From positions 34,100,001-34,164,000 of the forward strand of contig CM022672.1 of NCBI GenBank assembly GCA_012295275.1: a stretch of DNA of 64,000 nucleotides. The letters run 5' to 3'. A model generated the notes under the pieces. The model ran no database searches, had not been told where the DNA came from, and was given only the letters and a program-made list of their open reading frames with translations. Shown piece after piece: positions 48,426-50,174 of the stretch (its first letter is position 1; every line of letters starts with the position of its first letter). The translations under genes were made by a program, and so were the position numbers. The stretch is from Chrysomallon squamiferum. Taxonomy: Eukaryota > Animalia > Mollusca.

Positions 48426-50174
48426 CTTGTTGGTTTGAAAGAAATGTTTGTACAACTCGTTCTGGACAGACATCAGCTGAGCAGCTTTCTGTGTTCAATA
48501 AATAATCACCTAAATACTAAATGTTTTAAAATGATGGCTTTGGAATCTCAAATGTTTTTGATACTAAATATTAAAACAAAATACGAAGCTCATTACGTAG
48601 ATGTAATGACTTTAAGATGAGTATGGGAATAAAAATAGGAAAAAACACAAAACAAAACAAACTTGGGTTCCATGTTGGTTGTATTTGCTGAGGTAAACAC
48701 AACGTGTAACTCGGAGAGAGAAAGTCGACGGCCTTGTTCTGTAATCAGAGTCACAAATGTCACATTTGATTCTGGTTGTCGATGGGAAAATGTTCTGACT
48801 TCAGAAAATACTCGCTTTCCGTTTCGTGCTGAAATAAAGAGAACAGTTTTTAATTTATTAATATATCACTGGAATCAGTTTTAATATCATCAGAAATTAA
48901 TGTATTAGTAAAAGCAAATGTTTGCGTTTAGCAAAAAGGTGGAAAACCATCATGACTATGTGCGTGTGTGTTTTTGTATATATACACACACACACACACC
49001 ACCACACACACACACACACACACACACACACACATACACAGGGTGGTTCAAAAGTAGTTGGCAAGTAAAAGGTAACATTTATTTTGAGATTAGATATACA
49101 ATTATCTGAAAAGAAATATTAGTTGTAGTTATAAATAATATAGCACAAATACCATTGTTATAATGAAAACCATTGTAATAATATAACCCTAACACTAGTC
49201 TATATACTGTCCACCTACGTTTAAACCACCCTGTGTGTGTGTGTGTGTGTGTGTGTGTGTGTGTGTGTGTGTGTGTGTGTGTGTGTGTGTGTGTGTGTGT
49301 GTGTGTGTGTGTGTGTGTGTGTGTGTGTGTGTGTGTGTGTGCGTGTGTGTTGTTTAAAAACAAAATTAAAGAAAAATGTATGGATTATCAGAACGATGAA
49401 AAAGCTATTTTCTAGATTTGGTTTACACTTGAATGTTGCATTTTCTGTTTCTTCTAAGAGATATTCTGGTTTTCTGCAATAGGTTATAACAGACGTGAAA
49501 AAAAAAAAAAAAATAAAAAACCTGTAAAACCTGATTCTGTTTTAGCAGAGATATGTAGATTGTTTTGAATTCGTCATTTTGCATCTTGAAGGCAAATCTG
49601 AAATTGGTTCAGTTTCGTTACAGAGGTGCGTATAAAGAAAATAATTTTAAAAATCTCAGACAAGTGACGTACCAAAGAGAATCTTTTGTCCTGTAACAAG
49701 TTTTCATTTTTACAGTCTTCCCAGAGTCCAGTAGAACAGTGACGTCACCAGGGAAACACTTTCCCGGAGTTAGATGTTCTTTTTCGTGTAGAATTCCGTT
49801 TGAAGCTAGAACATTTAACATGGTGAATTTGAGAGAGAGAGAGAGAGAGAGAGAGAGAGAGAGAGAGAGAGAGAGAGAGAGAGAGAGAGAGAGAGAGAGA
49901 GAGAGAGAGAGAGATGATTACAATGAAATTGTTTGTGAATATGTCTCAAATAAACAGGATGCGAGGTTATGGTTTAGTACTTGCCAAATTCGATCTAGAA
50001 TGAATCTTTCTTTAGCGATTCAGATAAAATTACATTAATGTTAGTCCCGTTTTTTTCTTTAAAGATTTGTTATATCTTGAGTTTTATTAAACTGCTGTCT
50101 AAATTCTTACGAAATCTACGAGAATTATCTGAGATCAAAGAAAGCAAACAAAACACAAAGATGAAAACTCGCAT
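48426..50174 (-). pseudogene. Second peptide-Hint precursor, disabled
   Basis: Exons 50111-50174 (MRVFIFVFCLLSLISDNSRRF), 49673-49805 (PSNGILHEKEHLTPGK-CFPGDVTVLLDSG; 2-nt deletion near 49701), 48663-48828 (TFSHR..LSLSELH), 48426-48509 (5'-truncated, phase-incompatible). No GLYAPLT last exon found. Confidence 0.82.
49039..49233. mobile_element. Tc1/mariner-like MITE, 195 bp, in an intron of Hint copy 2
   Basis: 29-bp imperfect TIRs CAGGGTGGTTCAAAAGTAGTTGGCAAGTA / CAGGGTGGTTTAAACGTAGGTGGACAGTA. Confidence 0.7.

What the first reader, a model, noticed from the sequence alone, without database searches (positions are those of the whole stretch)
48426..50174. Paralog carries a different peptide payload on the same leader and Hint chassis
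Seen: the leader exon is homologous at DNA level (gctgaagctaaatt..gtgttt), and the Hint exons and their intron positions match copy 1. Between a dibasic site (RR) and CFPG the peptide is FPSNGILHEKEHLTPGK: 17 aa, no Cys, and intron 1 is phase 1 instead of phase 0. The ancestral ATG is lost but a downstream ATG restores a signal peptide (MRVFIFVFCLLSLIS). Inference: a modular system with conserved leader and processing enzyme and a hypervariable or swappable cargo, like conotoxin or RiPP precursors but with the enzyme fused in cis. The terminal GK would also be an amidation signal if hydrolytically released (speculative). This copy is disabled as assembled.
Basis: partly seen in the sequence, partly recalled or inferred. 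Interest (0 to 1): 0.8.

Follow-up and report, generated by a model that had tools for sequence, protein, structure and literature searches.

The report
Broken copy of snail self-cutting precursor
This is a spliced but broken copy of a multi-copy gene family, likely of a snail, in which a secretion signal and a Hedgehog-type domain predicted to cut itself off carry very different front ends; its short cysteine-free front end likely arose by deletion rather than by a swap.

Summary
Partly confirmed. Window 48427-50215 (-) is a paralog of an intact gene at 25370-27815 (+): signal, KR, 42-aa eight-Cys peptide, Hedgehog-type Hint/SRR domain. One RNA contig splices copy 2 at 50129/49805. The Cys-free peptide is therefore exonic and phase 1, but the 'RR' dibasic site is intronic and the peptide is 15 aa. 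The damage is not an assembly error. The frameshift is in RNA and DNA runs, though one X4 contig keeps the frame open. The lost exon-4 acceptor is seen in three runs, and exon 5 is absent from the window. Hint dN/dS is 0.80 (CI 0.37-1.97), and copy 2 changes conserved residues. Most likely it is a transcribed pseudogene whose Cys-rich cargo was deleted. The chassis-and-cargo idea holds for the family: 15-16 contigs per run cover exon 3, and Gigantopelta relatives carry varied Cys peptides, astacin domains or a Cys-free linker. Both copies group with mollusc Lophohog-type Hog proteins. Variable N-termini on Hog domains are known (PMC2362128, PMC5103448). The astacin fusions and the Lys/His at the catalytic Asp46 site were not found in my searches. 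Amidation is unsupported.

The parts
50129..50215 (-). Copy 2 leader exon; ATG at 50174 starts MRVFIFVFCLLSLIS; homologue of copy 1's ATG is lost
   Evidence: RNA contig covers 50217-50129 and joins an upstream exon; only ATG in exon; codon comparison
49806..50128 (-).
   Evidence: joint 49805/50129 and T>C at 50128 in X1, X4, X5; homology to copy 1 intron; lengths 741 vs 323
49759..49803 (-). Cys-free 15-aa peptide SNGILHEKEHLTPGK
   Evidence: exonic in RNA; X4 contig 49711-49818 with 1 difference; no significant similarity to copy 1 cargo or intron
49673..49758 (-). Start of Hint (Cys1 codon 49758-49756) with a 2-nt deletion near 49700
   Evidence: alignment to copy 1; deletion in RNA, X5 and one X4 contig, frame open in a second X4 contig
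48663..48828 (-). Copy 2 Hint exon 3; His at the Asp46 site, SxxH; premature stop of the shifted frame at 48803-48801
   Evidence: Pfam Hint 1.2e-9; RNA covers 48829-48676
48511..48662 (-). Intron 3 and replaced 5' end of exon 4; no in-frame acceptor
   Evidence: same sequence in X5, X6 and X8, no cover in X4
48427..48510 (-). Remnant of Hint exon 4; no exon 5 follows in the window
   Evidence: tblastn of copy 1 protein against the window
50518..50656 (-). Likely upstream non-coding exon or promoter block of copy 2 (inferred)
   Evidence: 72% to 21526-21685 upstream of the third leader; RNA loose end beyond 50217 resembles this area by eye
25370..25462 (+). Copy 1 exon 1: signal and KR site, phase 0
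26204..26411 (+). Copy 1 exon 2: eight-Cys cargo and Hint start (Cys1 at 26324)
26739..26907 (+). Copy 1 exon 3: His45 (Asp46 site), T68xxH71
27152..27258 (+). Copy 1 exon 4
27601..27815 (+). Copy 1 exon 5: Cys142 (C143 site) and SRR-like tail, stop
21173..21256 (-). Third leader exon, cut by a 200-N assembly gap
22119..22386 (+). Isolated exon-4 remnant of a further copy
   Evidence: 83% to 27111-27378
39761..39807 (+). Short exon-3 fragment
   Evidence: 87% over 47 nt

Best explanation
Copy 2 is a spliced but multiply broken paralog of a multi-copy family of secreted Hedgehog-type Hint (Hog) precursors, likely a transcribed pseudogene whose Cys-rich cargo and dibasic site were likely lost by deletion, leaving a signal, a 15-residue Cys-free peptide and a crippled Hint. 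How an intact member such as copy 1 would work (inferred from Hedgehog chemistry, untested here): the signal takes it into the ER; Cys1 of the Hint attacks the bond before it, helped by TxxH; Cys142 and a His at the Asp46 site pass the N-terminal part to a sterol bound by the C-terminal helices, or to water; a convertase trims at KR and frees a 42-aa, four-disulfide peptide. In copy 2's lineage (inferred order): the start moved to 50174 in the old leader frame; about 420 nt of intron 1 plus the cargo coding were lost and a new acceptor came into use; the gene may have worked for a time in this form; then loss of the exon-4 acceptor and of exon 5 removed Cys143 and the sterol-binding tail, and further lesions (frameshift, donor change) now vary between alleles. 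The spliced RNA seen would encode only a 68-aa secreted stub.
For: Spliced RNA with the frameshift (record 25, 0 gaps). Exon-4 lesion in X5 (two contigs, depth 46.5 and 42.4), X6 (154.5, 80.9) and X8; no in-frame acceptor; no exon 5 in the 48 kb downstream. Lesions differ between haplotypes (frame open in one X4 contig; GT donor in X1, X4, X5). Hint dN/dS copy 1 vs copy 2 is 0.80 over 108 codons; 13 of 25 differences are copy-2-derived, several at sites nearly fixed in Gigantopelta (T34F, L54S, S99T, F142L, K178Q). End branch 0.23 vs 0.02. RNA allele vs window in exon 3: 5 of 7 base differences change the residue. Intron 1 homologous up to the (CT)n, then 418 nt shorter. Family: 15, 15 and 16 contigs cover 48786 in X4, X5, X6, and an 843-nt RNA contig of another paralog runs through to exon 5. 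Hint fold and active-site register; roles of C1, D46, T69/H72, C143 and activity of D46H from PMC12054796 and PMC8529194 (passages).
Against: The dN/dS interval (0.37-1.97) also allows moderate purifying selection. One X4 contig keeps the frame open, and X4 shows no cover of the exon-4 lesion (a hole proves nothing, but an intact allele is not excluded). The peptide DNA has no detectable homology to copy 1's cargo exon (p 0.63) and only a weak match of the flanking intron (p 0.09), so its origin by deletion is inferred from lengths, not shown. The copy-2 signal is more hydrophobic than copy 1's (peak 3.5 vs 2.4; N>I, S>F, S>L), which suggests selection at some stage. RNA support is one contig from one run. 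The RNA cover of intron 3 could be DNA in the library.
Confidence: 0.5

Rival explanations
1. The peptide never was a cargo. One deletion killed the gene, a cryptic AG came into use, and the 47 nt before CFPG are leftover or unrelated DNA that happens to be in frame. The good signal was inherited from a working subfamily.
For: 14% of arbitrary YAG sites give such an open in-frame stretch. A similar lesion replaced the 5' end of exon 4 with unrelated DNA. No match to Lophohog or Gigantopelta cargo profiles (-3.0 and -2.4 bits). Near-neutral dN/dS. X5 shows several contigs over the leader, so the leader type may be shared (overlaps of short contigs can also explain this).
Against: Start, donor, acceptor and frame all line up in real RNA. 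Three polar-to-hydrophobic changes in 13 leader codons. Gigantopelta P0088 has the same signal, short Cys-free stretch and full Hint layout.
Confidence: 0.25
2. Copy 2 is a living gene with a real short cargo: intact alleles release or sterol-tag the 15-aa peptide, and null alleles segregate beside them (presence/absence variation in a fast-turnover family).
For: X4 holds a contig with the frame open beside one without, both joined to one contig that carries the peptide, plus a GT donor. X4 has no contig over the exon-4 lesion. Short secreted N-termini of 15, 25 and 34 aa on Hog domains are described in nematodes (PMC2362128 section 7).
Against: X4 also lacks cover of the neighbouring intron 2, so its exon 3-5 state is unknown. 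X5, X6, X8 and the window all carry the exon-4 lesion. The RNA seen is frameshifted.
Confidence: 0.2
3. The lesions are assembly errors, or the cargo was swapped in whole by recombination from another gene.
For: The window has a gap and several gene fragments. The source of the peptide DNA is unidentified.
Against: Frameshift and exon-4 lesion recur in independent runs. Intron 1 is collinear with copy 1 up to 25 nt before the new acceptor. No donor sequence was found in the window.
Confidence: 0.05

Closest known systems
Lophohog (lophotrochozoan hedgehog-related) family: Acanthochitona crinita A0A1J0M5N9/APD15680.1; Lottia LOTGIDRAFT_236513; Capitella CAPTEDRAFT_213608 (that the last two are the founding members is my inference)
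   Same: Signal + short Cys-rich N-terminus + Hog domain, no Hedge domain; CFPG start; PxRWFP and G(Y/F)SP tail; both copies sit in the mollusc group with these rows.
   Different: The conserved CxCxC-x9/10-CCxC cargo of chiton, limpets, abalones and Capitella is not matched by copy 1 (1.1 bits) or copy 2 (-3.0 bits). Here the family is expanded and the cargo varies; copy 2 has none.
Gigantopelta aegis 'hedgehog-like' gene models (e.g. XP_041371453.1, XP_041379577.1, XP_041356210.1, XP_041356556.1)
   Same: Nearest relatives (SH-aLRT 98). Copy 1's cargo shares the Cys spacing 1-6-3 with two of them and scores 18.0 bits against their profile (best of 500 shuffles 4.9). P0088 is likewise Cys-free between signal and Hint.
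   Different: Four models carry astacin domains, which are not seen in this window. They are automatic models that I could not check against RNA.
Nematode Hog proteins with short N-termini (Xiphinema Shog1/Shog2, Trichinella Xhog3) and warthog/groundhog/quahog (PMC2362128)
   Same: Secreted 15-34-aa peptide or novel domain in front of a Hog domain; N-termini evolve fast.
   Different: Separate lineage; not included in my trees; those are presented as intact genes.
Hedgehog (Drosophila HhC, PDB 1AT0, 6TYY D46H, 6TD6)
   Same: Hint fold (relative's model: TM 0.90-0.91 to target, rmsd 1.9); C1, TxxH and C143 in register.
   Different: No Hedge domain; no Gly before Cys1; His or Lys instead of Asp46; copy 2 lacks C143 and the SRR.
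Conotoxin and RiPP precursors (analogy; properties recalled, not tested)
   Same: Conserved leader, dibasic site, variable Cys-spaced mature part.
   Different: No homology shown; the Atlas search of the cargo gave only sub-0.9 leads; nothing indicates toxicity.

Membership tests
Hog-domain (hedgehog-related) proteins | Hint module with N-terminal Cys1 | tested here: met
   Pfam PF01079 on exons of both copies; Cys1 in both
Hog-domain (hedgehog-related) proteins | TxxH, C143 and C-terminal SRR/ARR region | tested here: inconclusive
   Met in copy 1 (T68, H71, C142, tail). Copy 2 has SxxH but no exon 5, so C143 and the tail are absent
Hog-domain (hedgehog-related) proteins | Secretion signal and non-Hedge N-terminus | tested here: met
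   Hydrophobic N-terminus in both by a Kyte-Doolittle window (no SignalP available); no Hedge hit on exon 2
Hog-domain (hedgehog-related) proteins | Autoprocessing and sterol ligation | not testable with these tools
   Needs an in vitro cleavage assay
Lophohog | Hog domain groups with the named Lophohog | tested here: inconclusive
   Nested in Gigantopelta (98) within gastropods (94); group with the Acanthochitona row 84, 91/51. The AU test did not reject grouping with Hedgehog rows (p 0.065)
Lophohog | Family-specific N-terminal Cys domain (CxCxC..CCxC, derived here from 8 rows) | tested here: not met
   Copy 1 1.1 bits, copy 2 -3.0 bits, against 51-61 bits for the rows that built the profile. 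The founding paper could not be read, so its own definition is unchecked
Hedgehog proper | Hedge signalling domain and Gly-Cys-Phe site with Asp46 | tested here: not met
   Arg or Lys before Cys1, His at the Asp46 site, no Hedge domain
Prohormone/conotoxin-type precursor (copy 2) | Dibasic site before the mature peptide | tested here: not met
   RR codons lie in intron 1 of the spliced RNA
Amidated peptide precursor (copy 2) | C-terminal Gly-basic exposed by cleavage, amidation shown | not testable with these tools
   GK is present, but it is not shared by relatives and the Hint is incomplete

The most novel reading that the evidence does not exclude
These snails run an expanded library of self-processing secreted precursors. 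One Hint enzyme, with Lys or His in place of the sterol-activating Asp46, cuts off and tags in cis whatever sits in front of it: hypervariable Cys peptides, astacin proteases or 15-residue linear peptides. Copy 2 is a cargo-replacement event caught while intact and null alleles still segregate.
Probability: 0.2. Interest if true: 0.72.

Novelty: new variant of a known kind. Interest (0 to 1): 0.4.

Why it matters
The locus itself is most likely a dying paralog, which is ordinary. The family behind it is the useful result. Whether hedgehog-related Hog domains outside Hedgehog add sterol is stated as open in PMC2362128. Copy 1 is a compact, intact test case with a natural His at the Asp46 site, and 16 of 24 related rows have Lys there, which would demand another chemistry or another nucleophile. 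The range of cargos on one chassis in a single snail lineage, including astacin-Hint fusions, would show how new N-termini arise on Hog domains: by fast divergence and by loss of cargo-coding DNA, as copy 2 and Gigantopelta P0088 suggest.

Tried and rejected
No whole genome is held, so paralogs could not be assembled. Word-based protein searches with single exons found nothing (5 and 2 candidates, none passing). Two scans of JGI metagenome contigs found no related locus (136 and 104 pattern matches, 0 confirmed). The Atlas search of copy 1's cargo gave best scores 0.82-0.75, leads only. Earlier-findings look-ups gave nothing for this genome or sequence and five prokaryotic Hint notes that do not bear on this. 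Homology of the peptide DNA to copy 1's cargo was tested and not found, although EKEH looks like DKED by eye (p 0.63-0.70). The 'RR' site was rejected on RNA evidence. X4's lack of cover at 48513-48664 is not used as proof of an intact allele. Summed contig depth (up to about 2000 over exon 3 vs 80 over intron 1 in X4) is not used as a copy number. The model of relative P0081 is confident for the Hint but below pLDDT 50 over most of the cargo, so no cargo fold is claimed. The founding Lophohog paper (PMC2614485) is not held, and the three supplements of PMC5103448 could not be read; they may list cargo sequences of 11 Lottia hh-related genes and so lower the novelty. Rows dropped: 6 of 41 rows lacked a usable Cys-Phe start and were left out of the first tree; 7 more long-branch or partial rows were left out of the second; 4 codons around the frameshift were left out of dN/dS.

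Full report
What is in the window. The sequence is AT-rich animal DNA full of microsatellites. The finding is the second of two Hint-domain genes. Copy 1 (25370-27815, +) has five exons with GT-AG introns and reads as an intact 263-aa protein: signal, KR, a 42-aa peptide with eight Cys, then CFPG and a Hint domain with a C-terminal tail. Copy 2 lies on the minus strand at 50215-48427. Three more fragments show local turnover of the family: a leader exon cut by a gap (21256-21173), an exon-4 remnant (22119-22386) and an exon-3 piece (39761-39807).

Checking the observation. Leader, intron 1 and Hint exons of copy 2 are homologous to copy 1, and the surviving splice sites are at the same places. 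Eight of ten listed public runs hold copy 1's stretch or part of it, one of them RNA. I laid five of them on copy 2. In RNA run X8 one 481-nt contig (depth 7.02) runs from an upstream exon through 50217-50129, jumps to 49805-49676 and continues into exon 3; none of the three DNA runs laid shows that joint. The acceptor and phase 1 are therefore right and the peptide is exonic. The RR codons are intron. The precursor reads signal (likely cut after Ala16), SNGILHEKEHLTPGK, CFPG.

Is the damage real? Yes. The RNA contig has no gap against the window, so it carries the same frameshift, giving a 68-aa product with a stop at 48803. X5 has it too. X4 has two contigs over 49630-49740, one like the window (depth 39.1) and one with two more bases that keep the frame open (28.1); both follow one contig that carries the peptide (53.1). 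The acceptor and first ~23 nt of exon 4 are replaced by unrelated DNA. None of 7 AG sites there is in frame, and the same DNA is in X5 (two contigs), X6 and X8, while X4 has no cover there or in the adjoining intron. Exon 5, with Cys143 and the sterol-recognition tail, is not in the window.

Selection. Over 108 Hint codons copy 1 vs copy 2 gives dN 0.113, dS 0.142, ratio 0.80 (bootstrap 0.37-1.97; Fisher p 0.68). Polarised on 13 Gigantopelta rows, 13 differences are copy-2-derived, 9 copy-1-derived and 3 unclear; copy 2's include nearly fixed sites. Its end branch is 0.23 against 0.02. Of 7 exon-3 differences between the RNA and the window, 5 change the residue. Against plain decay: the new start is in the old leader frame, and three polar residues became hydrophobic, so the signal is stronger than copy 1's.

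Origin of the peptide. Intron 1 is collinear with copy 1 up to a shared (CT)n. Copy 1 then has about 420 nt of intron and 120 nt of cargo; copy 2 has 25 and 47 nt. The 47 nt match neither copy 1's cargo (p 0.63) nor anything else in the window; the flanking 25 nt weakly match copy 1's intron (p 0.09). Deletion with a new acceptor is the simplest reading, but it is inferred. An open in-frame stretch of this length arises by chance at about 14% of YAG sites.

The family. At the Hint cysteine 3, 4 and 5 (+2) contigs of X1, X4 and X5, and one more RNA contig, leave copy 2's sequence. Two such ends could be read (my hand translation)...CVACPIESSN and ...PCTKADDRKG, both with Cys. 15, 15 and 16 contigs cover one exon-3 base in X4, X5 and X6, and an 843-nt RNA contig of another paralog is spliced through to exon 5; contigs are not loci, but eight or more copies is likely. 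A search with exon 5 gave 70 proteins; the best named ones are from Gigantopelta aegis, Haliotis and Patella, so the host is likely a gastropod near Gigantopelta (inference from best hits only). A profile search gave 23 proteins, among them Lottia LOTGIDRAFT_236513 and the Acanthochitona protein deposited as 'lophotrochozoan hedgehog-related'. Chiton, limpet, abalone and Capitella rows keep one cargo pattern, CxCxC-x9/10-CCxC. The 13 Gigantopelta models vary: five small Cys peptides with different spacing, four astacin-Hint fusions (three strong, one 27 bits), one Cys-free linker whose leader is 26 of 37 and Hint 183 of 203 identical to an astacin fusion, and three others. Copy 1's cargo matches the Gigantopelta profile (18.0 bits; best of 500 shuffles 4.9); copy 2's does not. 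These are unchecked automatic models.

Mechanism. In copy 1 the residues C1, H45, T68, H71 and C142 fall in register with Drosophila C1, D46, T69, H72 and C143. A model of relative P0081 matches 6TYY and 1AT0 best. The roles of these residues, and that D46H still processes and accepts more sterols, are from passages of PMC12054796 and PMC8529194. The Asp46 site is Lys in 16, His in 6, Asp in 1 and absent in 1 of 24 related rows; His is also common in unrelated Hog rows. So copy 1 likely self-cleaves and may sterol-tag its peptide. Copy 2 as seen cannot, since its Hint is frameshifted and lacks its last strands and Cys143. Amidation would need a working Hint and hydrolytic release, and has no support.

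What is known. PMC2362128 (abstract, section 7, first part of the Discussion, passages) describes Hog proteins with secreted N-termini as short as 15-34 aa, concludes that Hog genes readily evolve new N-termini, and leaves sterol addition open. PMC5103448 (section 9, passages) reports Lophohog and 11 hh-related genes in one limpet; PMC9695228 (passages) repeats this. The founding paper and the supplements were not readable. Searches for Lophohog, gastropod Hint expansions, Gigantopelta with hedgehog, astacin with Hint domain, and vent-snail expansions found no description of the astacin fusions or of the variable cargos in this lineage; the library lacks most subscription journals. In trees both copies nest among Gigantopelta rows (SH-aLRT 98) inside the mollusc group, but the AU test against a Hedgehog grouping was not significant (p 0.065) and the classical Lophohog cargo motif is not met. 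It works like a Lophohog-type Hog protein; strict membership is not shown.

Verdict. The locus is most likely a transcribed pseudogene with a remodelled front end (0.5); a front end that never worked (0.25) or a living intact allele (0.2) remain possible. The modular family is real and a modest extension of a known kind. Interest 0.4.

Noticed in passing
P0001, P0084, P0086, P0009 (Gigantopelta models): Astacin protease domains fused in front of the same Hint domain; P0088 shares their leader and Hint but lacks the astacin. No paper found with astacin and Hint domain.
   Followed up: partly
alignment, Hint position 45/46: Lys replaces the catalytic Asp46 in 16 of 24 rows of the mollusc-centred group, including the named Lophohog.
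   Followed up: partly
P0041 (Palaemon carinicauda XP_068242658.1): A crustacean model with a small CxC..CCxC cargo on a Hint that groups near the mollusc rows (SH-aLRT 94, long branch), so the type may not be limited to lophotrochozoans.
   Followed up: partly
window 337-1041 (+) and 38122-38967 (-): Two single-ORF caspase genes in inverted orientation, 88% identical in DNA.
   Followed up: no
window 43842-44711 (+) and about 35800-36500 (+): Torsin-like AAA ORF and a 90% identical partial second copy.
   Followed up: no
window 33408-34645 and 34917-36126; 9617-10539 and 45511-46471: Local duplications of about 1.2 kb (93%) and 1 kb (77%); the region is a patchwork of duplicated segments.
   Followed up: no
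window about 17500-21000 (-) and 56800-59440 (-): Exon-like pieces resembling a protein tyrosine phosphatase and a nucleoside hydrolase (motifs recalled, not searched; ORFs).
   Followed up: no
window 20973-21172: 200-N gap that cuts the third leader exon, so a further full copy may be hidden or collapsed here.
   Followed up: no
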